Sequence record: MK962756
DNA: 64,000 nucleotides
Strand: one strand, 5' to 3'
Source: Shigella phage JK42
Positions 1 through 10,387 of the stretch are shown here, piece after piece (position 1 is the stretch's first letter; the number at the start of each line of letters is the position of its first letter). Below the pieces are notes generated by a model. The model was not told where the DNA came from, searched no databases, and saw nothing but the letters and a program-made list of their open reading frames with translations. Made by a program: the position numbers and the translations under genes.

Positions 1-2214
1 TTATTTGGCCGCTTCCACGGCCTTCATGAATTTAACGATTTGAGCGACCTGTTCTTTTGAAAGAGTACCACGTCGTCCCATGTAGTCTGACACAATATGA
101 TAATTGGTTTCGAATTCAATAACCATTTTATCATCATTATCGTAAGCATTATCTTTAAGCTTATCGAAAATTTTAGCACACAATTCTAACTTCTTATTCA
201 GGTCTGTATTAGTAGCACCTGCGAATCGATTCCATCCCCAACGATTATTTACTGTTGAGAGTTTTGCAAAGTCTTTACTGATTTCTTTGTTCTTAGAGCT
301 AAAATACTTACTAAGGAAGTTAAGCTCTTCATTACGAGTAATATGATTCAAATAAGGCTGTGCTCTACGACTTGGTGATACATACTCATCATAATCCACT
401 TTATCGATTAGCGTAATATAGTCATTAATTGATTTTTCGAACAAGCATTCTACTTCACCAAGTTTACGAACTTTCTTAGCAATCTGTGGACGAACTACAG
501 TGAACTCTTTAATACCTGACAAATCAGCAATACGGGTCAAGAAATTGGAGTCATAGTTCAACCAACCTTTATCTGCGTCAAGACATTCAGCATTAGAACG
601 ATTACGAACTATAGCATAACCTTGGATTTCATCAGCTTCACTCGCTGGAATAAAGAGATCTTCTGATACCCAAACATCGTTTTCATTCTTAAAGAACCGA
701 TGAGCACTCGGGGATTTAGGACGAGGCCCATTAGAACGAGTCTTGACTTCAATCCATGGCTTAACGATTTGTAAAAGCTCTGAAGTCTTGTACATGTTAA
801 TGTTGTCGCCATCAAAGATAACTTTAAGACGTTCCAGAAGTTTCATTGCATCTTCGTCTGTAGGGTCAACGAATAGTACGCTTTTACCAAAACCGCGTGG
901 AACTTTACCGGTTAATTTAACCTCGTCTTTAGACATTTCAATTGAATTAAGAGCTCGCATTAATGGAACGCGTCCCTTAACGTCGTCAATAACAATTTCA
1001 ACGTTTTTAATGTTAATGCCAATCAGACTGTTAATTGAAATAGTTGTCGATGAGCTACCACTTTCACGAATACGACGAAGACGAGGGGATTCAACGATAT
1101 CGTATACGACACCAAGATTACACCACTCAGGCCCCATTTTAAAACGTTTGTACAACTCAGAATAAGTTAGTTGTTCTTTAGAGTATTTCAGTGATTCAAT
1201 ATTAGACCCAGCCTTTTCCATGTATTTACGAGCGGTATAACCAAGAGAATCAATTTCACGGAACACATGACGCGGGTATTTACAATCAATCCATTTCTTA
1301 GAATCTTCAGCGAACAATTTAGCATCGATTTCTGCAACGCGTTTATGGATATTTGCTACTGTACGTTTATCAAATGACAATGCTTCACGAGACGGGGCTA
1401 CATCTAGTTCACCCATAGGGAATTTAATATAAGCTGTAGTGCATCGCGTCATCATCCATGTTTGTTCTTTAATAACACTTCCGATTGGATATACAATACC
1501 ACCATAAACAGCCATGATATTACCACGTTCACCCCATGGAGCTTCCTTGGCCAAATATACATCGTCAAATTCAGGAAAGTATTTAATATCTTTAACACCA
1601 CGAACTTCTGCAATATCACCTAGAGGACGCATAACATATGCAATTTCGGATGCGAACTTTTCAAAATCTTCCGGGTTAACCGGTACAACTACTTCTACAC
1701 CCGTACGGTCATCAGGGCCCATCTTATCTACAAAGGTTGGCTTAATTTGTGGACCCGTGTCATCTTGGTAGATTACGTAACCACGAACTTCACCGTTGTG
1801 ATAAGACGTAAGGTTAAACGTATCGGTATATGCTAGTGGAGCTTTAGAGCCGAGTCCGAATCCACCAATGAAATCGTTACTCGATGTTTTAGTTGAAGCA
1901 AAATATGAGTTATAGATTCCTGGCTCTTCATCATTACCTCGAATGGTGAAATCGCTCATACCAGGACCAAAGTCTCGAACTACAAAACGTGGGTCTAAAC
2001 GACCTGGAGCCTGAACAATAAACTTATCAGTGCAACCATTAAGAATTTGTCCATCAATACAGTTTGTGATTAATTCACGTACACAAGCCAATTCTTTGTT
2101 TGTATAAAGGTCATTAGACAAAATCTTATAAACTTTGCTATTGCCTTGAATAGTGAATGCTGTGCTTTTACCACCAGAACCAATAATCGTTTCTTTAGCC
2201 GTTTCAATAATCAT
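1..2214 (-). CDS. rIIA: rIIA membrane-associated protein (GHKL-type ATPase-like N-terminus)
   Basis: 737-aa complete ORF with stop at 1..3; N-terminal sequence and length match remembered T4 rIIA (725 aa); first gene of the canonical T4 map. Confidence 0.85.
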   Translation of the reverse strand: MIIETAKETIIGSGGKSTAFTIQGNSKVYKILSNDLYTNKELACVRELITNCIDGQILNGCTDKFIVQAPGRLDPRFVVRDFGPGMSDFTIRGNDEEPGIYNSYFASTKTSSNDFIGGFGLGSKAPLAYTDTFNLTSYHNGEVRGYVIYQDDTGPQIKPTFVDKMGPDDRTGVEVVVPVNPEDFEKFASEIAYVMRPLGDIAEVRGVKDIKYFPEFDDVYLAKEAPWGERGNIMAVYGGIVYPIGSVIKEQTWMMTRCTTAYIKFPMGELDVAPSREALSFDKRTVANIHKRVAEIDAKLFAEDSKKWIDCKYPRHVFREIDSLGYTARKYMEKAGSNIESLKYSKEQLTYSELYKRFKMGPEWCNLGVVYDIVESPRLRRIRESGSSSTTISINSLIGINIKNVEIVIDDVKGRVPLMRALNSIEMSKDEVKLTGKVPRGFGKSVLFVDPTDEDAMKLLERLKVIFDGDNINMYKTSELLQIVKPWIEVKTRSNGPRPKSPSAHRFFKNENDVWVSEDLFIPASEADEIQGYAIVRNRSNAECLDADKGWLNYDSNFLTRIADLSGIKEFTVVRPQIAKKVRKLGEVECLFEKSINDYITLIDKVDYDEYVSPSRRAQPYLNHITRNEELNFLSKYFSSKNKEISKDFAKLSTVNNRWGWNRFAGATNTDLNKKLELCAKIFDKLKDNAYDNDDKMVIEFETNYHIVSDYMGRRGTLSKEQVAQIVKFMKAVEAAK

Positions 2215-2226
2215 ATTTTTCTCTCA

Positions 2227-2427
2227 TCACAAGTTACGTTTAAAAATTTCTGCCACTTCGAGAAGTTCTTCTTTAGTAGCTGTATCGGTTTGTATTTTAT
2301 ATCGAATTTCTTTAAAGCGTTCTTTAAAGGACTCTGCTGACTCGATATCAAAAAATCTTTGGATAAGCCGGAATTCCCGGAGCACTGCTTTATCAAAAAG
2401 TTCCAAGTCCACGTTATATGTTCTCAT
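2227..2427 (-). CDS. small hypothetical protein at the rIIA.1 position
   Basis: 66-aa ORF directly downstream of rIIA on the same strand; assigned by position only. Confidence 0.45.
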   Translation of the reverse strand: MRTYNVDLELFDKAVLREFRLIQRFFDIESAESFKERFKEIRYKIQTDTATKEELLEVAEIFKRNL

Positions 2428-2452
2428 AATATTCTCTTCAGTAGATTCCTAG

Positions 2453-2503
2453 GGCACTATTACTAAAGACCATATAATCTATCATCTTATGTGTAATAGT
2501 GCC
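2453..2503. repeat. 11-bp perfect inverted repeat (GGCACTATTAC ... GTAATAGTGCC) with 29-nt A/T-rich loop
   Basis: Read directly: arms at 2453-2463 and 2493-2503; lies between the glycosyltransferase stop and the rIIA.1-like start. Confidence 0.4.
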
Positions 2504-2519
2504 TCAGGCTATTCAGGAT

Positions 2520-3620
2520 TTACGCTGTGAAGATTTTATCCCACATCGCAACAACTGCATCTCGGTTATACTTCTTCCATACTGCTTCAGCACGTTTAAC
2601 TCGAGCTTCGTATGTGTCAGTGAATTCTAATACAGCTTTTGTGTAAAGCGCAACTACTTCTTTCTTAGGAGTAGATGAATCAATTTCTACACGCACAGTA
2701 TCTGGGTCGTATTCAAATGTCGCATGAGGATAATCCTTAAAAACTAACTGGATTACAGGGACACCTTTAGAGATGGCTTCAATAGAACTATTCTCTACCG
2801 TACCTGTGTCAGGACAAGTATTAATAAGTGCTTTAGCTGTTTTAAGACGTTCCATGATTTCACTGTGTGGAGCATCAATAATAACAGGATATTTAGCCGG
2901 TGGCGCCCATTTGCTTGGACAGTATCCTGCACCATTTTCGCCTAGTGCTTTAATCGCTTCAAGAGCAACATCAGTACGACGCATTTTAGTGTCATAACGT
3001 TGTGCACTAATAATCAGATCCGTCGCCGGAAGAACTTCTGGCTTTTCAGTCAAACAAATAACCGGATAATCTTCGGCTTCAAACAACGGATTTGCTCGCC
3101 AATAATCATAATCAATTTTGTCAGTCAGACCTGAAGTCATATAACAATATTTACGTTCAAATTCACGGAAGGCTTTAGTAGGAGCATAACTCTTACCACC
3201 ATTCTTATGAATTTGAATAGTCTGGTCCCAAATTTGAACAATGCCACGAGATACCGGTTCAAATGGTGTTGCCATAAAATTCTTATGAACTTTAGAGAGA
3301 CCTGCGTCTTTAATTGCCTGAACGGTTAGTTTAGTCGGTTCCATAGTAACAACAAAATCGTATTCATGAATGCCGGCTAGTTCAACAATCTTACGAGCCA
3401 TAGTATAACTCATACCTAGACTGAATTTAGTCAGATGACCAACAGGATGATGATTAACCTTCCAATCACCAAATGTGTCATTATCAAAGCCGATATAATC
3501 AATATCAGCACCGATGGACACAAGATATTTCAACACATTTAAATGTACTGCTTCAAGACCACCTTGTACACGTTCTGGGTTAAATGGGACTGCGCGAGAT
3601 GGGATAAACATAACTTTCAT
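2520..3620 (-). CDS. GT-B fold glycosyltransferase (GT4-like); candidate DNA hmC sugar transferase
   Basis: 366 aa; N-terminus MKVMFIPSRAVPFNPERVQGGLEAVHLNVLKYL and C-terminal ...TGTVENSSIEAISKGVPVI resemble retaining GT-B enzymes; inserted between rIIA.1 and gene 39 where T4 has gene 60/mobA. Confidence 0.6.
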   Translation of the reverse strand: MKVMFIPSRAVPFNPERVQGGLEAVHLNVLKYLVSIGADIDYIGFDNDTFGDWKVNHHPVGHLTKFSLGMSYTMARKIVELAGIHEYDFVVTMEPTKLTVQAIKDAGLSKVHKNFMATPFEPVSRGIVQIWDQTIQIHKNGGKSYAPTKAFREFERKYCYMTSGLTDKIDYDYWRANPLFEAEDYPVICLTEKPEVLPATDLIISAQRYDTKMRRTDVALEAIKALGENGAGYCPSKWAPPAKYPVIIDAPHSEIMERLKTAKALINTCPDTGTVENSSIEAISKGVPVIQLVFKDYPHATFEYDPDTVRVEIDSSTPKKEVVALYTKAVLEFTDTYEARVKRAEAVWKKYNRDAVVAMWDKIFTA

Positions 3621-3646
3621 AATTAAGCCTTATTAAAATTAAAATG

Positions 3647-3664
3647 AAGCTCCCGAAGGAGCTT
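3647..3664 (-). terminator. hairpin AAGCTCC-CGAA-GGAGCTT followed on the minus strand by a U-rich tract
   Basis: 7-bp stem with 4-nt loop overlapping the gene 39 stop codon; minus-strand reading gives hairpin then CAUUUUAAUUUUAAU. Confidence 0.5.
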
Positions 3665-5480
3665 AGGACATCCATTCTTTACGAAGTTCTGAATCATCAC
3701 CCATCAACATTTCAAAGAGTTCTTTCCAATTTTCAGGAAGTTTAACTACGTCGTACACAGGGTTCTGAATCATTTCACGATATTCTGACTTTTCAAGGGA
3801 GCCTAATCCCTTGATGTATCTAATACTATGCTTAGGCAGTGTATCTTTAACTTCTTCATACTCAGCTACAGTATAAAACCATTTTTGAGTTTTGCCAATT
3901 TGTGCAATAATTACAGGTGTTTTAACAAAGCGAATACGTCCTTGTTCAAACAATTCAGGCCAATTACTAAAGAAAGCAAGCAAAGCCGGATAAATACTTC
4001 CAAGGCCGTCATGATCGGCATCGGTCATAATTGCAATATTACGGTAGTTCGTATTCTCTGCCTTTTCACCAAGAATAAGACCTGTGATAGCACAGATATC
4101 AAAGAGCTCTTTGTTCTTCATCATATCAGCATATGACATACCCCAGCTATTCATCACCTTACCACGTAATGGGAATCCACCGTGTAGTTCACGGTCACGA
4201 ACATCAATGAGATAACCAATTGCAGAATCACCTTCTGTTAAGAACAATGTCGTATCTGCATCTTTACCACATTGGTTAGCTTTAATATGCTTATGAACCT
4301 TAGCTTTAGTTGCCTTTTTAGCTGCTTTAGTTTCTGCAGCCTTTTCTGCCGCCAATTTACGAGCTAATGCTGCTTCAACAATAGGCATAATCAAGGCTTC
4401 GTTTTTAAGAAGTGCCTGAGCAATTTTCTTAGCATCTAATTGGATATGATTACGAATATCACCATACGTTGACGTTAAACGTTCTTTAGTCTGAGAATCA
4501 AAACGCATGTTGCTCATGTCTCTAATAAACATCAACATTGTGAGACATTCTTTAACACGAGCTTTAGTGACTTCAATACCCTTATATTTCTTTTTAATAC
4601 CGGGCAAAAGATGTTCGCAGATATCATCCATTACACATTCAACATGATGACCACCATTTTTAGTATGGATGTTATTCACATAAGTTAAATGACGGAAGCC
4701 ATCTGGTGATGTTGTGAATGCTATAGAGACTTTATCATTTTCTTGAATGATGTTATCTTCACCAAATTGTTTAGCAAATCGTTTAAAATTACCATCAACC
4801 TTTTTACCATTAAATGTGAACTTGATATCAGGATAAACGACTGCCAATGTTTGAAGTCTGTCTAAAGTAATATCTAAATAAATTTGAGATAAATTATGCT
4901 CTTCAAATGAAGAGAAATCAGGAGTGAAGATTACTTTAGTGCCTTTACATTTAGATTTCTTAGAAGACCATGATTTGTTTTCCATTCCGTTTGAACAGTT
5001 AACAGTGATTTCATTTTCGCCATCTGACGTGATGCCTGTAAACAACGTAGAGAAGATATTAGTTAAACTACTCCCGACGCCGTTCATACCACCAGTCTTG
5101 CGTTCAGAATCATCACCAAAGTTACCACCAGCCTTTGGAATAGTCCAGGCTGCTACAGGCCCAGGAATTTGTTCACCTGTTTGGTCGGTAACTAAACCTT
5201 GAGGAATACCACGTCCGTTATCTTCCACCGAAACTTGATTATTTTTAATTTGCACATCAATTTTATTTGCAAACTTAAATGATGTACGAATAGATTCATC
5301 AACCGAGTTGTCAATAATCTCATCGATTAATTTAACCAGACCAGGAACATATTCAACTTGTTGATATTTACCAAACAAAAAACGCTCATGTGCTTCTTTA
5401 GCAGAAGAACCAATATACATACCACTACGTTTCTTAATATGTTCTACATCTGACAATACCTTAATTTCATTTTTAATCAT
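3663..5480 (-). CDS. 39: DNA topoisomerase II large (ATPase, GyrB-like) subunit, fused 39/60 form
   Basis: 605 aa, GyrB-like sequence (…KKRSGMYIGSS…); the length fits the unsplit form of gp39 and no gene-60 bypass element is present. Confidence 0.9.
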   Translation of the reverse strand: MIKNEIKVLSDVEHIKKRSGMYIGSSAKEAHERFLFGKYQQVEYVPGLVKLIDEIIDNSVDESIRTSFKFANKIDVQIKNNQVSVEDNGRGIPQGLVTDQTGEQIPGPVAAWTIPKAGGNFGDDSERKTGGMNGVGSSLTNIFSTLFTGITSDGENEITVNCSNGMENKSWSSKKSKCKGTKVIFTPDFSSFEEHNLSQIYLDITLDRLQTLAVVYPDIKFTFNGKKVDGNFKRFAKQFGEDNIIQENDKVSIAFTTSPDGFRHLTYVNNIHTKNGGHHVECVMDDICEHLLPGIKKKYKGIEVTKARVKECLTMLMFIRDMSNMRFDSQTKERLTSTYGDIRNHIQLDAKKIAQALLKNEALIMPIVEAALARKLAAEKAAETKAAKKATKAKVHKHIKANQCGKDADTTLFLTEGDSAIGYLIDVRDRELHGGFPLRGKVMNSWGMSYADMMKNKELFDICAITGLILGEKAENTNYRNIAIMTDADHDGLGSIYPALLAFFSNWPELFEQGRIRFVKTPVIIAQIGKTQKWFYTVAEYEEVKDTLPKHSIRYIKGLGSLEKSEYREMIQNPVYDVVKLPENWKELFEMLMGDDSELRKEWMS

Positions 5481-5529
5481 GTTGTCTCCTCGTTATGAAG
5501 GTATTCTATCATCCGAAATCTAAAGCAAA

Positions 5530-5545
5530 AAGGGCCGAAGCCCTT
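5530..5545 (-). terminator. hairpin AAGGGC-CGAA-GCCCTT plus U tract
   Basis: 6-bp stem with 4-nt loop overlapping the stop of the 140-aa ORF; minus strand continues UUUUGCUUU. Confidence 0.5.
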
Positions 5546-5966
5546 ATTTAAATTTAATTTTCTGAAGTGCATCAATTGCAGCCAAACGCCCTTGTTCACT
5601 TTTAACTGTAATGACCACATCACCTGATACGATCACCGAACCATCAACAAATTCTATAGAGCCTTTTTTGAAATCTACGGCTGTATCTGATTCAGGAACT
5701 TCTTCAAAGAATTTAAATTCTGCACCGTAAATTAGAATATCACCTTGCATACTAATGATTGTACGTCCAGGTCCATCGGTTTCAGCGGCAATCATTGAAA
5801 CACCGTAACCAATCATCTCTTCCACAATAAAATCTTTGGACAATAAAGTAGTATGCAGATTAGTATTAAGACGTTTACCAGTCGTATTAAGAATTCTCAA
5901 GAAATTATCTTCCTGTCCTTTGATAATACGATATTTCTTACCAACTTCAAAACCTTTAAAAGACAT
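5544..5966 (-). CDS. hypothetical protein
   Basis: 140-aa ORF between terminator hairpin and coupled small ORF; no recognised motif. Confidence 0.5.
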   Translation of the reverse strand: MSFKGFEVGKKYRIIKGQEDNFLRILNTTGKRLNTNLHTTLLSKDFIVEEMIGYGVSMIAAETDGPGRTIISMQGDILIYGAEFKFFEEVPESDTAVDFKKGSIEFVDGSVIVSGDVVITVKSEQGRLAAIDALQKIKFK

Positions 5967-5968
5967 AA

Positions 5969-6148
5969 TTAACCCTTCTTAAGTAAGTCGTAAAAACCAC
6001 CGTTCACATGTTTAGGAGCAGAAACCCGACGAGTAGACAGACGATGACATTCAGGGCAAACATCGTTTTCTCGTTCAGAAATTCTTTTAATTTTTTCATA
6101 TTCATGACCACAATCTTCAGATTGACATTTATAGTCGTATAACGGCAT
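5969..6148 (-). CDS. small zinc-ribbon protein (FmdB-like CxxC...CxxC)
   Basis: Hand translation: [59 protein letters not shown]; start overlaps upstream stop (TAATG), stop abuts next ATG; below the ORF-track length cutoff. Confidence 0.5.
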   Translation of the reverse strand: MPLYDYKCQSEDCGHEYEKIKRISERENDVCPECHRLSTRRVSAPKHVNGGFYDLLKKG

Positions 6149-6579
6149 TATTGTTCCTTAAAATGTGCTTTCAACATTTGATATAAAGACCATGCCTGGT
6201 CGTTATTTTCGATAGTAATCTTCATCACAGGAAATTCAGACAATTCATCAAGTTCACCAGAATCTTGCTCTTCGGACGCTTGATATGGATTTCCAACTTC
6301 GTCAAAGAATTCTGCTTCATTCGTGGAGAGCCAGATAAAGTTTTCATCAAGGATATCACCACCTGTTGCGTATCCAACCATGCCGGTAGATGTCACAATT
6401 TTAGTAGGACGACCAAGATGGTCAACATCTAATACTTTAAATGGTTCCATGCCAAGACGTCGTGCATAAATCCCATTATCAGTGTGGTCTTTAATAAACT
6501 CTTCTTGGGCACGTTTATCTTTAAATTGGTACCATGAGTTAACGCGGAATTTATTAGCCATTAGTAAGTTTCCTTCCAA
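6148..6579 (-). CDS. hypothetical protein
   Basis: 143-aa ORF, acidic C-terminal half. Confidence 0.5.
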
Positions 6580-6833
6580 TAAGTTGTACCATTTTCAGTG
6601 ATTTCACGGAAGATACCATAGATAGGCATTTCATCACCGAGTTTTTCGTAAACGTAAACCACTTCAGTGTAGCATAAAAATTCGGTCCAGTTTTTCTGTA
6701 CAACAACTAAATCAGGATTAAACAGAACATCTTCAAACTCATCGATGTTTGAATCAGTAGTTACGTTTTTAATGATTTGACGTTTCATAATATTCTCCTC
6801 TTGTTTTGATATGTCTATAGTATCATAGACCAT
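6561..6833 (-). CDS. hypothetical protein
   Basis: 90-aa ORF in the gene chain. Confidence 0.45.
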
Positions 6834-6845
6834 AGTTGTTGTACA

Positions 6846-7370
6846 TCATTTTAGCAAAATAAAATCAACTTGTTCTGCTAATGAACGTCTGAACATTAAT
6901 TGACAACTTCCGAGTATGAAATCAGGTGCTTCATAGACCGCGATGTAGTATCCTTTAGCTTTCAAGAGTTCAACATCCACCTGGTCATCAAACCATGCAT
7001 AAACCGCGTCAACACTTTCAAATCCAAAATAGAACCCTTGAGCCCAATCTTCACTCAATTCAAATGTGTGCTCAATTCTATAGTATCTTAAGATATTTTG
7101 TTCAAGGAGTTTGTCTTCATTTACTGTAGGACGATTAGGGACATTATAGTTGTCGCCGTGATGGTAGAAGTTACCTGAGAGTATTCCATGCTTATCAAGG
7201 AACTCCCATGTTTCTTCAGAGTTGTCAGTGCCTGACCAACCGTACGGCGAGCGAGGTTCTTTATTCCAAGAGGTTTCCCAAATTCTGACGGCTTTACCGT
7301 CTTCGATAGCAATTCCGGGTAATGATTCACGTTGAGTACAAAAACTACGTTCTACGCGGTAAACTAACAT
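6846..7370 (-). CDS. hypothetical protein
   Basis: 174-aa ORF with an early-promoter-like element just upstream (7391-7426). Confidence 0.55.
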   Translation of the reverse strand: MLVYRVERSFCTQRESLPGIAIEDGKAVRIWETSWNKEPRSPYGWSGTDNSEETWEFLDKHGILSGNFYHHGDNYNVPNRPTVNEDKLLEQNILRYYRIEHTFELSEDWAQGFYFGFESVDAVYAWFDDQVDVELLKAKGYYIAVYEAPDFILGSCQLMFRRSLAEQVDFILLK

Positions 7371-7390
7371 ATTATTCTCCTCTGGTTGAT

Positions 7391-7426
7391 ATGGTTATAA
7401 TATCAAAACCAGAGGAGAAGTAAACT
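7391..7426 (-). promoter_or_regulatory. sigma70-type early promoter (GTTTAC -35; A/T -10)
   Basis: Plus strand shows ttataatatc ... gtaaac; minus strand reads GTTTAC, ~16-17 nt, TATTATAA; sits in the intergenic gap. Confidence 0.4.
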
Positions 7427-7429
7427 ACT

Positions 7430-7849
7430 TTATGCAAAAGATGCTTGGCTATATCCTTTGATTTGGAATTCAGGAACTACCATGAACTGTCCGGCGAAAA
7501 CGATGTTATAAAGCTTAACACCATCTTCAACCCATTGGTCTGAAATAAAACCAGCGACTTGATTCGTTGTCCATGGAGACCCATCAGTTGCGGCAGCAAT
7601 AGTAAATTCATGATCTTTTACAACTAAAACTGACCTGCACAGTTTCCATTTGAATGCTTTTTCTTCTGGTTCAATGAACTGACTTGAGACGTAACCAATG
7701 TTACCATTAACATCTCGAACTTTAACTTCGTTACGTCCAAAAACCGGATCACTCACAGAAAGAACTTCAACCAACTTCCCGGCAACTTTAGAGCGAGAAG
7801 CAACAGATACATATACGTAATCACCTGTAGAGAGATTTACAATATTCAT
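7430..7849 (-). CDS. hypothetical protein, tandem paralog A
   Basis: 139 aa; shares ASRSKxAGKLVEV, FKWxLC and GFISDQWVEDGxKLYNIVF with the adjacent ORF. Confidence 0.55.
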   Translation of the reverse strand: MNIVNLSTGDYVYVSVASRSKVAGKLVEVLSVSDPVFGRNEVKVRDVNGNIGYVSSQFIEPEEKAFKWKLCRSVLVVKDHEFTIAAATDGSPWTTNQVAGFISDQWVEDGVKLYNIVFAGQFMVVPEFQIKGYSQASFA

Positions 7850-7858
7850 AATAATTCC

Positions 7859-8320
7859 TTAAGCTTTACGAGGAGACACATAGCGAGTGATTTCAGATTC
7901 TTTAACAACTCGGAAGTCACCTAAGAATACGATATTGTATAACTTTTCACCATCTTCAACCCATTGGTCGCTAATGAAGCCACACATAGTATCAGTTTTG
8001 CTTGAACCGTATTCATCGATGAAGTCAAATTCTTTATCAGTCTGGAATTCAACACCTTTACACAAGGCCCATTTGAACTGTGTAGTAGGCTCAACGATAT
8101 CGCTTGAAGCAAAGTGGGCACTTACACGAGTTTCCAAGAATTTAGGACTTACATAGGCGAACTGAGTTTCAGTTTTTCCAGAACTAGGAATGATTCGAAC
8201 TTTAACTTCTTTAATACGGCCCATGCCATTAGTACGAAGTCCTACTACTTCAACCAGCTTTCCTGCAGCTTTAGAACGAGACGCTGTCGATACACGCTTA
8301 ATTTCACCAATATTAATCAT
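7859..8320 (-). CDS. hypothetical protein, tandem paralog B
   Basis: 153 aa; paralog of 7430..7849 (same conserved blocks). Confidence 0.55.
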   Translation of the reverse strand: MINIGEIKRVSTASRSKAAGKLVEVVGLRTNGMGRIKEVKVRIIPSSGKTETQFAYVSPKFLETRVSAHFASSDIVEPTTQFKWALCKGVEFQTDKEFDFIDEYGSSKTDTMCGFISDQWVEDGEKLYNIVFLGDFRVVKESEITRYVSPRKA

Positions 8321-8351
8321 ATTTTTTTCTCTCTTTGTTTAAGTTGAATTC

Positions 8352-8380
8352 ATTATACTCCATCCATCCTTGGTTGTAAA
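8352..8380 (-). promoter_or_regulatory. early promoter TTTACA-N17-TATAAT, copy 1 of a repeated 31-bp element
   Basis: Plus strand cattatactccatccatccttggttgtaaac; minus strand gives -35 TTTACA, 17-nt spacer, -10 TATAAT. Confidence 0.5.
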
Positions 8381-8386
8381 CCGGTT

Positions 8387-9064
8387 TTATCGCTGTTTTA
8401 CACTTAACGGGTCAGGATTCTCAGGGACATCTTCAAGGCCAAGCGCATAACGCTGAGCATATTTTAACATCAAAATATCTTTAGCACAATCATGAATACT
8501 ATCATGGGCAACGAATCCTTTTAGCGTACCCATCGGTAATGGACACATACTTAATCCTCGTGTCAACGAGTAAGCTTCGATTGCCGTACGAATATCACGT
8601 TGAGCCCAGAATTTAACCGGTTCTAATTTATCAGTATCAATATCTGGTTCAAGAACACCTTCATCACGATAGAGGTCACGAATCAAATCGACCAAGATCG
8701 GGAAGTCAAAGCTCATACCACGGCACCACATCTGTGATTTCCATTGGTCAACTTTATTAGCTCGACAATAATCTAAAAAGATTTTAATGCCTTCAAGCGT
8801 AGTGACATCGTCTTCAGACGGAGCCAGGTTTTTACGCGCTTCTGCTGACTGTTCTTTCCACCATTTCATAGTGGATTTAGCGAAAACTCGCTTCCCTTTC
8901 TGAGAAGCTAAATTAAATTTAATTCGCTTACCTCGTTGAACAAGTTCTTCAAATGATTCAACAACTTCAGGGTCGGAATTATATGCAATAACCGCAAGGT
9001 CAATAACAGCCGCTTTTGATGTATTGCCGAATGTTTCAAAATCTATAATAACATCAGTGCTCAT
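8387..9064 (-). CDS. dexA: exonuclease A (DEDDh 3'-5' exonuclease)
   Basis: 225 aa; N-terminal ...IIDFETFGN... exonuclease motif; size and position after dda as in T4. Confidence 0.8.
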   Translation of the reverse strand: MSTDVIIDFETFGNTSKAAVIDLAVIAYNSDPEVVESFEELVQRGKRIKFNLASQKGKRVFAKSTMKWWKEQSAEARKNLAPSEDDVTTLEGIKIFLDYCRANKVDQWKSQMWCRGMSFDFPILVDLIRDLYRDEGVLEPDIDTDKLEPVKFWAQRDIRTAIEAYSLTRGLSMCPLPMGTLKGFVAHDSIHDCAKDILMLKYAQRYALGLEDVPENPDPLSVKQR

Positions 9065-9073
9065 AATTTTCTC

Positions 9074-10387
9074 TCAAATAAAATGGACGTCAAAACGACC
9101 ACGAGTTGTGCCGACATACAATAACTGTTTAGCTAATTCTGAATCAGCATAATGGATACACGGTGTATAAACAAAGGCCGTGTCAACAGACATACCCTGG
9201 GCCTTATGGAAGGTTGATACTGGTAGTGCCTTCACCTTAGTGAACATACGTTTAGCATCCCAGAATTCGCTCCATGGAGCTTTACCGCCTTTATTCCAGA
9301 ATTTGTATGTTTCTGCGGTCTTAGCCAAAAACAAATTGAATTTATAAAGCTCTTCTTCAGAAGAAATAACCTTTATATCTTCGCGGATGTATTCTTCATC
9401 ATCCCCATATGTTTCTACTGTAAGATTCCAGTATCGTATCATATATTCGCCTGAAACACCACGTGCTTTAACGAATGTAGACGTTTCTACAGCATCTCGA
9501 ATACGAACGAATTGCCCATTATTGAAAAGCATTTCAGTCATATTTTTGCCATCTAGCTTGTACGTCTTAGTAAACGGCTCTTGTAGAACAATGACTTCGT
9601 CTTTAATAAATGGTTTTTCTGTTTCAAGAAGTTTTCGGCGAATAATTGAATTTAACTTGTCCACCGACTTATTTGTGAATGCCATCATTCGATTTTCGAA
9701 AAGGTCTTCAGGAGTTTTAACGACGTTAAAATAGTTCATCATATACGATTTAAGGTCTGTATATCCGTGAACACCGTGTCCATCAACTACTTTATCGTAA
9801 ATCCATTTGCCATTACGAATATCAGTCGCAACATCAATAATTGGTGCATTGCTACGTTTAACTTCTGTAAGGTTGCATTGCACGAAGTCTTTGTGAGTGA
9901 AGAAAGGACTTAGATATGCAGTTGATTCGCCTGGGTCTACCGGTCGAATCTGGCATCGGTCGCCGATTCCAATTACTGTGCACCATTTAGGGATACTAGC
10001 TAACATTATTTTAAACAGAGAACGGTCGCACATTGACGCTTCATCAAATAACAGTACACGACACAAGGCTAAGTCGGGAACCTTTTTCTGTTCAAACAAT
10101 ACGTTTTCTTCGTATGTAGTTGGGTTGATTTTAAGAATGCTATGAATAGTCGATGCTTCTTGACCTGCAAGTTTGCTTAGAACCTTTTTAGCAGCATGTG
10201 TAGGGGCTGCTAAAATAATACCTGATTCTCCGGCAGAAATAAGAGCTTCAACGATGAATCTAGTAAGGGTTGTTTTACCTGTACCAGCAGGCCCATTAAT
10301 AGTTACATGATGTTTCTTTTCTTTAATAGCGTTCATAACAACGTTGAAGGCGTTTTTCTGGCCTTCAGTCAAATCATCAAATGTCAT
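9074..10387 (-). CDS. dda: Dda DNA helicase (SF1B)
   Basis: 437 aa; MTFDDLTEGQKNAFNVVMNAIKEKKHHVTINGPAGTGKTT... matches remembered T4 Dda closely, including Walker A. Confidence 0.92.
   Translation of the reverse strand: MTFDDLTEGQKNAFNVVMNAIKEKKHHVTINGPAGTGKTTLTRFIVEALISAGESGIILAAPTHAAKKVLSKLAGQEASTIHSILKINPTTYEENVLFEQKKVPDLALCRVLLFDEASMCDRSLFKIMLASIPKWCTVIGIGDRCQIRPVDPGESTAYLSPFFTHKDFVQCNLTEVKRSNAPIIDVATDIRNGKWIYDKVVDGHGVHGYTDLKSYMMNYFNVVKTPEDLFENRMMAFTNKSVDKLNSIIRRKLLETEKPFIKDEVIVLQEPFTKTYKLDGKNMTEMLFNNGQFVRIRDAVETSTFVKARGVSGEYMIRYWNLTVETYGDDEEYIREDIKVISSEEELYKFNLFLAKTAETYKFWNKGGKAPWSEFWDAKRMFTKVKALPVSTFHKAQGMSVDTAFVYTPCIHYADSELAKQLLYVGTTRGRFDVHFI

What the first reader, a model, noticed from the sequence alone, without database searches (positions are those of the whole stretch)
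5969..6148. Unannotated-size zinc-ribbon ORF translationally coupled on both sides
A 59-aa ORF missed by the 60-aa cutoff encodes an FmdB-like CxxC...CxxC zinc ribbon ([19 protein letters not shown]...CPECH). Its ATG overlaps the upstream stop (TAATG) and its stop abuts the next ATG. Small zinc ribbons in phage early regions often act as regulators of host enzymes.
Basis: seen in the sequence. Interest (0 to 1): 0.35.

Follow-up and report, generated by a model that had tools for sequence, protein, structure and literature searches.

The report
Known phage gene 39.2, GroEL modulator
The 59-codon reading frame is a real, strongly conserved gene, but an ordinary one: it is the RB69/T4 "39.2" small zinc-ribbon protein, already annotated in hundreds of T4-like phages and shown in 2012 to tune the host GroEL chaperonin.

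Summary
The ORF exists as described, on the minus strand (6148→5969, 59 aa). It passes the curated cut-offs for the FmdB zinc-ribbon family: Pfam PF09723 scores 49.3 bits against 34.4, and TIGR02605 scores 48 against 31.3. It evolves under strong purifying selection (variable sites at codon positions 1/2/3 are 15/12/40; dN/dS is 0.05-0.13).

It is not unannotated. The protein is 100% identical to RB69 ORF006c, and the window is the left end of an RB69-like Mosigvirus genome. It is the syntenic ortholog of T4 gene 39.2 (goF–39.2–…–39) and is present in 848 phage records.

T4 gp39.2 (NwgI) is experimentally characterised. It shifts GroEL towards its open, co-chaperonin-binding state, and a T4 39.2 deletion cannot grow on certain groEL mutant hosts.

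- The first zinc knuckle is Cx4C, not CxxC.
- The downstream ATG lies 2 nt after the stop.
- The TAATG overlap is specific to this strain; RB69 has a 2-nt gap there.
- Such tight junctions are routine: 39 of 93 gene pairs in RB69's first 50 kb.

The "FmdB-like transcriptional regulator" label is inherited from a name, not from any test found here. Verdict: already known, low interest.

The parts
5969..6148 (-). Gene 39.2 ortholog (59 aa + stop). It encodes an FmdB-family zinc-ribbon protein: ribbon core at residues 1-42, conserved tail SAPKHVNGGFYD at residues 43-54.
   Evidence: ORF. Pfam PF09723 49.3 bits. TIGR02605 48 bits. 100% aa identity to RB69 NP_861696. dN/dS 0.05-0.13. AF2 pLDDT ~89 for residues 1-40.
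6146..6162 (-). Start region of 39.2: AAGGA Shine-Dalgarno-like motif, then the goF stop TAA overlapping the ATG by one base (AAGGAACAATAATG).
   Evidence: Read directly. RB69 and phi25-307 have TAA-TA-ATG instead.
6148..6561 (-). goF ortholog, immediately upstream. The likely start is the ATG at 6561 (MANKF...); the TTG at 6579 listed by the ORF tool is probably not used.
   Evidence: 74% identity to T4 goF. RB69 goF is annotated at the matching position.
5544..5966 (-). 140-aa ORF immediately downstream, with its ATG 2 nt after the 39.2 stop. It matches RB69 ORF005c; function unknown.
   Evidence: PHROG 622. 39% identity to the 123-aa ORF downstream of 39.2 in Tequatroviruses.
5530..5545 (-). 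Terminator-like GC hairpin plus T-run directly after the 140-aa ORF and before gene 39. It may mark the end of the transcription unit that holds 39.2.
   Evidence: Consensus scan only; not tested.

Best explanation
The ORF is the Mosigvirus (RB69-type) allele of T4-like phage gene 39.2 (NwgI).

It encodes a 59-residue protein made of two parts. The first is a compact four-stranded zinc ribbon with ligands C8, C13, C31 and C34. The second is a flexible, conserved C-terminal tail (SAPKHVNGGFYD).

It is expressed from the early gene cluster dexA–motB–cef–goF–39.2 upstream of topoisomerase gene 39.

By orthology with the characterised T4 protein, it most likely binds the host GroEL chaperonin and shifts its open/closed equilibrium towards the open state, which can bind GroES or the phage co-chaperonin. 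That would secure GroEL-dependent folding of phage proteins in hosts whose GroEL is suboptimal. It is dispensable on standard laboratory hosts.

Shown here: gene reality, family membership, orthology and synteny, selection, and predicted fold. Taken from the literature: the GroEL effect, for T4. Inferred: that the RB69-type allele in this window does the same, that zinc is bound, and that the neighbouring genes are translationally coupled.
For: - Identity: 0 aa and 1 nt difference from RB69 ORF006c, whose note reads 'similar to T4 accession AAD42464'. 43 of 57 residues are identical to frame-corrected T4 gp39.2.
- Annotation in relatives: labelled '39.2' in phage IME08 and 'gp39.2' in Yersinia phage phiR1-RT.
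- Synteny: goF→39.2→...→39 holds in Mosigvirus, Tequatrovirus, Dhakavirus and Yersinia phages.
- Spread: tblastn finds it in 848 phage records, essentially all T4-like.
- Family: PF09723 and TIGR02605 both score above their curated cut-offs.
- Selection: 15/12/40 variable sites at codon positions 1/2/3; dN/dS 0.05-0.13 with saturated dS.
- Structure: pLDDT 80 overall and ~89 for residues 1-40, with strands at 3-8, 16-20, 28-30 and 37-40; the tail is low-confidence. The best viral structural match is T4 Q01434, the protein from the gp39-comCA intergenic region.
[quoted passage not shown] It shifts GroEL towards the open conformation, and a T4 39.2 deletion is blocked on specific groEL mutant hosts (PMC5153855; PMC4396842; both cite Ang & Georgopoulos 2012, Genetics 190:989).
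Against: - My memory that the RB69 allele itself was tested is unverified.
- The window protein differs from T4 gp39.2 at about 25% of positions, so conservation of function is inferred.
- No structure of a gp39.2–GroEL complex, and no solved structure of any FmdB-family member, was found.
- Zinc binding is not demonstrated, and distant homologs replace the second ligand with His.
Confidence: 0.82

Rival explanations
1. It is a transcriptional regulator, as the propagated product name 'FmdB-like transcriptional regulator' says. On this view it would bind DNA or RNA polymerase/sigma to redirect host or phage transcription early in infection.
For: - The product name appears in PHROG 1076 and many GenBank records.
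- The neighbours include transcription modifiers (MotB paralogs).
- Weak, non-significant Foldseek similarity to the sigma-binding zinc ribbons RbpA and the YdjO-SigA model (E 0.4-0.9).
Against: - No experimental support for a transcription role was found. A literature search for FmdB plus zinc ribbon returned one unrelated paper.
- Pfam and NCBIfam name it only 'zinc ribbon domain' and 'FmdB family zinc ribbon protein'.
- The only experimental data reported for an ortholog point to GroEL.
- The structural matches are generic zinc ribbons with E > 0.4.
Confidence: 0.06
2. It is a small adaptor that acts mainly on another host or phage target, for example something linked to its conserved neighbours goF or cef (RNA metabolism) or the topoisomerase. 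On this view the GroEL effect is secondary or appears only on overexpression.
For: - Constant linkage to goF and gene 39 in Tevenvirinae.
- The tail motif is shared with the very broad cellular FmdB family, which suggests a generic, conserved partner.
- The GroEL phenotype is described as 'subtle'.
Against: - In Krischvirus and Muldoonvirus the gene sits next to dexA or other ORFs without goF, so the linkage to goF is not universal.
- The deletion phenotype on groEL mutant hosts arises at native expression level.
Confidence: 0.1
3. It is a chance ORF or non-coding spacer in an AT-rich region.
For: It is only 59 codons long, and spurious ORFs of similar or greater length occur on the opposite strand nearby.
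Against: - Curated family thresholds are passed.
- 848 homologous phage loci.
- Third-position-biased variation and dN/dS around 0.1.
- The four Cys are invariant or nearly so across 125 relatives.
- A confident predicted fold.
- A purified protein and a deletion phenotype exist for the T4 ortholog.
Confidence: 0.01

Closest known systems
RB69 ORF006c (NP_861696.1), the RB69 gene 39.2
   Same: Identical amino-acid sequence (one synonymous nucleotide difference). Same neighbours, and genome coordinates that differ by only 3 nt.
   Different: In the window, a T→C change removes goF's usual stop codon. goF therefore runs one codon further, and its new stop overlaps the 39.2 ATG (TAATG). RB69 has TAA-TA-ATG at this junction.
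T4 gp39.2 / NwgI (Ang & Georgopoulos 2012), the GroEL modulator
   Same: - Syntenic ortholog, goF→39.2→...→39.
- 43 of 57 residues identical after frame correction.
- Same Cx4C...CxxC ligand pattern and the same GGFYDLLKG tail.
- The top viral structural match is T4 Q01434.
   Different: - About 25% of residues differ.
- The T4 RefSeq entry annotates only 45 aa because of a 1-nt frame difference.
- The downstream neighbour differs: T4 has 39.1, the window has a 140-aa ORF.
- Function was tested for T4, not for this exact sequence within the sources I could read.
FmdB family zinc-ribbon proteins (Pfam PF09723 Zn_ribbon_8; TIGR02605 CxxC_CxxC_SSSS)
   Same: - N-terminal MP.Y.Y.C signature, four ligands, the I-S-E-R linker and the CP.C second knuckle.
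- A post-ribbon 'AP...G-G-aromatic-Y' tail related to the canonical 'AP.F.LKG.GWY'.
   Different: - The first knuckle has a 2-residue insertion (Cx4C), seen in about a third of the aligned relatives.
- The tail variant GG(F/Y)YD marks a subgroup that comes from T4-like phages in most cases where a source is named; one cluster also holds a Pantoea sp. genome record.
- No Ser-rich C-terminus.
- I found no tested function for the cellular family.
Phage co-chaperonins gp31 (T4) and CocO (RB49)
   Same: Phage-encoded small proteins that adapt the host GroEL machine to phage needs. This comes from the literature cited in PMC5649160's reference list and from general knowledge.
   Different: Those are GroES-like heptameric lids with a different fold and no zinc ribbon, and they are essential for capsid protein folding. 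gp39.2 is a non-essential accessory modulator with no sequence or fold relationship to them.

Membership tests
FmdB family zinc ribbon (PF09723 / TIGR02605) | Profile score above the curated gathering or trusted cut-off | tested here: met
   PF09723 scores 49.3 bits against 34.4. TIGR02605 scores 48.0 bits against 31.3.
FmdB family zinc ribbon (PF09723 / TIGR02605) | Two Cys pairs (nominally CxxC...CxxC) placed to bind one zinc ion | tested here: met
   C8, C13, C31 and C34 are present. In 125 aligned relatives these columns hold Cys in 124, 119, 125 and 125 sequences. The first pair is Cx4C here. Metal binding itself is not testable with these tools.
FmdB family zinc ribbon (PF09723 / TIGR02605) | Zinc-ribbon fold (two beta-hairpin knuckles) | tested here: met
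   The AF2 model has pLDDT ~89 over residues 1-40 with four strands. The Foldseek PDB matches are all zinc-ribbon modules but none is significant. BFVD matches to FmdB-family phage proteins have probability 1.00.
FmdB family zinc ribbon (PF09723 / TIGR02605) | Function as a transcriptional regulator, as implied by the name | not testable with these tools
   No experimental evidence was located. The name should not be read as a function.
T4-like phage gene 39.2 (NwgI) orthologs | Sequence orthology to T4/RB69 gp39.2 | tested here: met
   100% identical to RB69 ORF006c and 43/57 to corrected T4 gp39.2. tblastn finds 848 records, with a continuum of identity from 100% down to about 40%.
T4-like phage gene 39.2 (NwgI) orthologs | Conserved genomic position between goF (or dexA) and topoisomerase gene 39 | tested here: met
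T4-like phage gene 39.2 (NwgI) orthologs | Modulation of GroEL: suppression of groEL alleles, and a requirement for phage growth on groEL mutant hosts | not testable with these tools
   Reported for T4 in PMC5153855 and PMC4396842. It needs genetics or biochemistry for this allele.

The most novel reading that the evidence does not exclude
The flexible, conserved C-terminal tail (SAPK.V-N/H-GG-F/Y-YD) is the element that contacts GroEL, perhaps by docking in the apical-domain groove in the manner of the GroES mobile loop (AGGIVL, recalled from memory).

This tail is homologous to the 'AP.F.LKG.GWY' tail of the widespread cellular FmdB family. If the tail is the contact, that large family of 'putative regulatory proteins' of unknown function could be chaperonin modulators rather than transcription factors.

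Nothing here tests this. It rests on motif conservation and on the low-confidence, probably disordered tail in the model.
Probability: 0.08. Interest if true: 0.55.

Novelty: already known. Interest (0 to 1): 0.1.

Why it matters
It matters little as a discovery. The gene is annotated in relatives and its T4 ortholog has a published function.

There is practical value for annotation:
- The label 'FmdB-like transcriptional regulator' carried by hundreds of T4-like phage records is a name inherited from a family. The only experimental data point to GroEL modulation.
- The T4 RefSeq entry appears to truncate the protein to 45 aa, losing the most conserved tail motif.

The unexplored structural basis of the gp39.2–GroEL interaction, and the unknown role of cellular FmdB proteins, remain modest open questions.

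Tried and rejected
- The primary paper (PMC3296260 / DOI 10.1534/genetics.111.135640) is not held. A search for '39.2 + RB69 + GroEL' found nothing. Several citing papers hold only the reference.
- phmmer of the protein and an hmmsearch of the 125-sequence profile against PDB sequences gave only generic zinc-finger or zinc-ribbon pattern matches: bL31, designed C2H2 arrays, Rpo12, MCM. They were rejected as uninformative.
- The first AF2 run, on a 5-sequence alignment, gave pLDDT 53 and was discarded. The word-seeded homolog search returned only 8 close relatives.
- The promoter scan is not above chance (16 found against 12±3.8 expected), so I assign no promoter. The terminator-like hairpin at 5545..5530 is a consensus match only.
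- I considered whether goF and the 140-aa downstream ORF are paralogs flanking 39.2, since both hit PHROG 622. Pairwise BLASTP shows no significant similarity (E=0.46), so this is left open.
- I used T4_ev240 to check the T4 frameshift, but its 39.2 allele is not T4-like, so it cannot settle the question.

Full report
**Observation.** The reading frame is present exactly at 5969..6148, but on the minus strand. It runs from the ATG at 6148..6146 to the TAA at 5971..5969 and encodes 59 aa: [59 protein letters not shown].

Reading directly, the stop codon of the upstream ORF (TAA, 6150..6148) shares one base with the ATG (TAATG). An AAGGA motif sits 8-12 nt upstream. The next ORF's ATG (5966) follows the stop after two bases (TAA-TT-ATG).

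Two details in the finding need correcting. The first cysteine pair is C8-x4-C13, not CxxC; the second pair, C31-P-E-C34, is CxxC. And the stop does not strictly abut the next ATG.

ORF length alone is not evidence of a gene here. The region is 37% GC, and one search lists antisense ORFs of up to 102 aa within known genes.

**Is it a gene?** Yes.
- It scores above the curated thresholds of Pfam Zn_ribbon_8 (PF09723; 49.3 bits against 34.4, E=5e-13) and NCBIfam TIGR02605 'FmdB family zinc ribbon protein' (48 bits against 31.3). It also matches PHROG 1076.
- tblastn finds it in 848 phage records, almost all T4-like phages of enterobacteria. Identity ranges continuously from 100% to about 40%.
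- I extracted the gene from nine annotated loci and a frame-corrected T4 copy and built a codon alignment. Among eight close homologs, 15, 12 and 40 sites vary at codon positions 1, 2 and 3 over 58 codons. Pairwise dN/dS against the window is 0.05-0.13, with synonymous sites at or near saturation.

**What it is.** The window is the left end of an RB69-like Mosigvirus genome.
- A 2-kb stretch around the ORF is 97-99% identical to many Mosigvirus records.
- Gene coordinates are almost the same as in RB69: gene 39 lies at 3663..5483 in RB69 and 3663..5480 here.
- The protein is identical to RB69 ORF006c (NP_861696.1), with one synonymous nucleotide difference. RB69's annotation says 'similar to T4 accession AAD42464'.
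- In T4 the gene in the same slot, between goF and gene 39, is 39.2. Its sequence, [37 protein letters not shown]..., is plainly orthologous, with 43 of 57 residues identical after frame correction.
- The order goF→39.2→(39.1-like ORFs)→39 holds in Mosigvirus, Tequatrovirus, Dhakavirus and Yersinia phages. In Moonvirus, Krischvirus and Muldoonvirus the gene is still in the dexA–39 early region, with different neighbours.
- Phage IME08 labels it '39.2' and Yersinia phage phiR1-RT labels it 'gp39.2'.
- It is therefore not an unannotated gene. A CDS lies under the match in 38 of the 40 sampled records; the other two carry no annotation at all.

**What it does.** T4 39.2 has been characterised.
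- According to that summary, genetic and biochemical work suggests that Gp39.2 shifts GroEL towards its open conformation, which can bind host and phage co-chaperones. A T4 39.2 deletion is completely blocked on specific groEL mutant hosts.
- PMC4396842 says the same and classes it with ORFans that fine-tune host proteins.
- Both cite Ang & Georgopoulos 2012, Genetics 190:989. I could not open that paper.
- My recollection that the original selection recovered the RB69 allele, which would be this exact protein, is from memory and unverified.
- The most likely mechanism for the window's gene is therefore an early-expressed accessory protein that binds host GroEL and biases it towards the co-chaperonin-accepting state. 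This would safeguard GroEL-dependent folding of phage proteins in hosts with suboptimal GroEL.
- Gene reality, orthology and fold are shown here. The GroEL effect is taken from the literature on T4. Its transfer to this allele, about 75% identical to T4's, is inference.

**Anatomy.**
- An exhaustive HMMER search of 1.84 billion cluster representatives gave 302 relatives at E≤1e-3.
- In a 125-sequence alignment, C31 and C34 are invariant. M1, P2, Y4, Y6, C8 and C13 are conserved in at least 90% of sequences. About a third of the relatives share the 2-residue insertion that makes the first knuckle Cx4C.
- Krischvirus and Muldoonvirus homologs have CxxH in the first knuckle instead.
- With this alignment AlphaFold2 gives pLDDT 80. 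Residues 1-40 score about 89 and form four strands (3-8, 16-20, 28-30, 37-40). The tail, residues 41-59, scores 57-67 and is probably flexible. A shallow 5-sequence alignment had failed (pLDDT 53).
- Foldseek against the PDB finds only generic zinc-ribbon modules (MCM N-terminal domain, aRF1, Rpo12, RbpA), none significant (best E=0.41).
- Against predicted viral structures, the top hit is T4 Q01434, 'Uncharacterized 5.1 kDa protein in Gp39-comCA intergenic region'. That is the truncated T4 39.2. Other phage FmdB-family proteins follow.
- No FmdB-family member has a solved structure detectable by sequence.

**The tail.**
- Beyond the Pfam domain, the motif SAPK.V(N/H)GG(F/Y)YD is kept even in the most distant phage homologs.
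- Of the 156 proteins held, 20 carry GG[FYW][YFW]D.
- The tail-bearing clusters that have names are from T4-like Yersinia phages, plus one cluster that also holds a Pantoea sp. genome record on a 349-kb contig. One unnamed tail-bearing cluster (P0017) has a longest contig of about 167 kb, the size of a T4-like genome.
- 45 proteins match the looser pattern G.G(W/F/Y)(Y/F/W), which covers the canonical FmdB-family tail 'AP.F.(L/F)KG.G(W/F)Y'.
- The tail therefore looks ancestral to the family rather than a phage invention. It is the natural candidate for a partner-binding element, but this is untested.

**The 'coupling' claim.** The arrangement is as described, but it is neither special nor conserved in detail.
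- RB69, phi25-307 and the Tequatroviruses have TAA + 2 nt + ATG upstream. The window's 1-nt overlap arises from a T→C change that extends goF by one codon.
- Downstream spacings range from a 4-nt overlap to a 6-nt gap across genera.
- In RB69's first 50 kb, 39 of 93 neighbouring gene pairs overlap or lie within 2 nt, 17 genes are tight on both sides, and 14 of 94 CDS are 60 codons or fewer.
- Translational coupling is plausible but is a generic property of T4-type early clusters.
- A consensus scan gives promoter-like sites at chance level. It also finds a terminator-like hairpin at 5545..5530 (minus strand), just after the downstream ORF.

**The product name.** 'FmdB-like transcriptional regulator' comes from family-name propagation. 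I found no experimental support for a transcription role. Pfam and NCBIfam call the family only a zinc ribbon. The rival 'transcription factor' reading gets low weight.

**Verdict.** The feature is an already known, experimentally characterised gene, and interest is low.

Noticed in passing
L002 (T4 NC_000866.4) about 3690-3715 on the minus strand, i.e. record positions about 5690-5715: T4 RefSeq annotates 39.2 as 45 aa ending ...VSAS*. Removing one T from GCTTCC restores ...VSAPKHGNNGFYDLLKG* (58 aa). That is the length quoted by Georgopoulos, and it recovers the tail conserved in all homologs. This is probably a reference sequence error or a strain-specific indel. UniProt Q01434, the '5.1 kDa protein', inherits the truncation.
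   Followed up: partly
L002 (T4) 3399-3700 on the minus strand: T4 39.1 also looks frame-broken. An ORF starting MKYISRSIAALVLAVSL... begins 2 nt after the corrected 39.2 stop and terminates early, while the annotated 39.1 (MLINATKVL...) continues in another frame. In IME08, YenM_P8 and a48 the two parts form one ~86-aa protein with a signal peptide and a lipobox-like motif (SL(V/A)GC).
   Followed up: partly
P0007, P0008 (Shigella phage vB_SsoM_113, Salmonella phage Manna): Some deposited 39.2 homologs are 47-aa variants that switch frame after the C31-P32 position (…DVCPNVIVCLLVGLLLLSM), losing the fourth zinc ligand. The out-of-frame text resembles the 35-aa alternative-frame ORF at window 6004..6111. 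These are probably assembly or indel artefacts or pseudogenes.
   Followed up: no
window about 8314-8382, compared with RB69 8376-8872: About 490 bp of RB69 (ORF012c plus motB.1) are absent from the window. Otherwise window 2000-10000 is 96-97% identical to RB69.
   Followed up: partly
window 7430-7849 and 7859-8320 (minus strand): Two tandem MotB-like paralogs (Pfam PF17613, E=8e-23 and 1e-39). RB69 has the same arrangement; T4 has a single motB.
   Followed up: no
window 5544-5966 and 6148-6561 (minus strand): Both ORFs flanking 39.2 hit PHROG 622 and goF-labelled PHROGs, yet they show no significant pairwise BLASTP similarity (E=0.46). They may be very distant paralogs bracketing the zinc-ribbon gene.
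   Followed up: partly
window 3663-5480 (minus strand): The topoisomerase II large subunit is a single unsplit 605-aa gene here, as in RB69. In T4 it is split into genes 39 and 60, with the translational-bypass element. phi25-307 carries a homing endonuclease gene directly downstream of it, overlapping its stop codon.
   Followed up: no
L008 (Krischvirus Aragogtheria) and L009 (Serratia phage SP1), CDS starting at 1501: Distant 39.2 homologs have CxxH instead of Cx4C or CxxC in the first knuckle, giving a Cys-His-Cys-Cys ligand set. They keep the GG(F/Y)YD tail.
   Followed up: no
P0006: A 38-aa partial FmdB protein, 79% identical to the window protein over the 64% of it that aligns (and matching the first 38 residues of P0004), is deposited under Enterococcus faecalis on a 336-bp contig. 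This is most likely coliphage contamination of that assembly.
   Followed up: no
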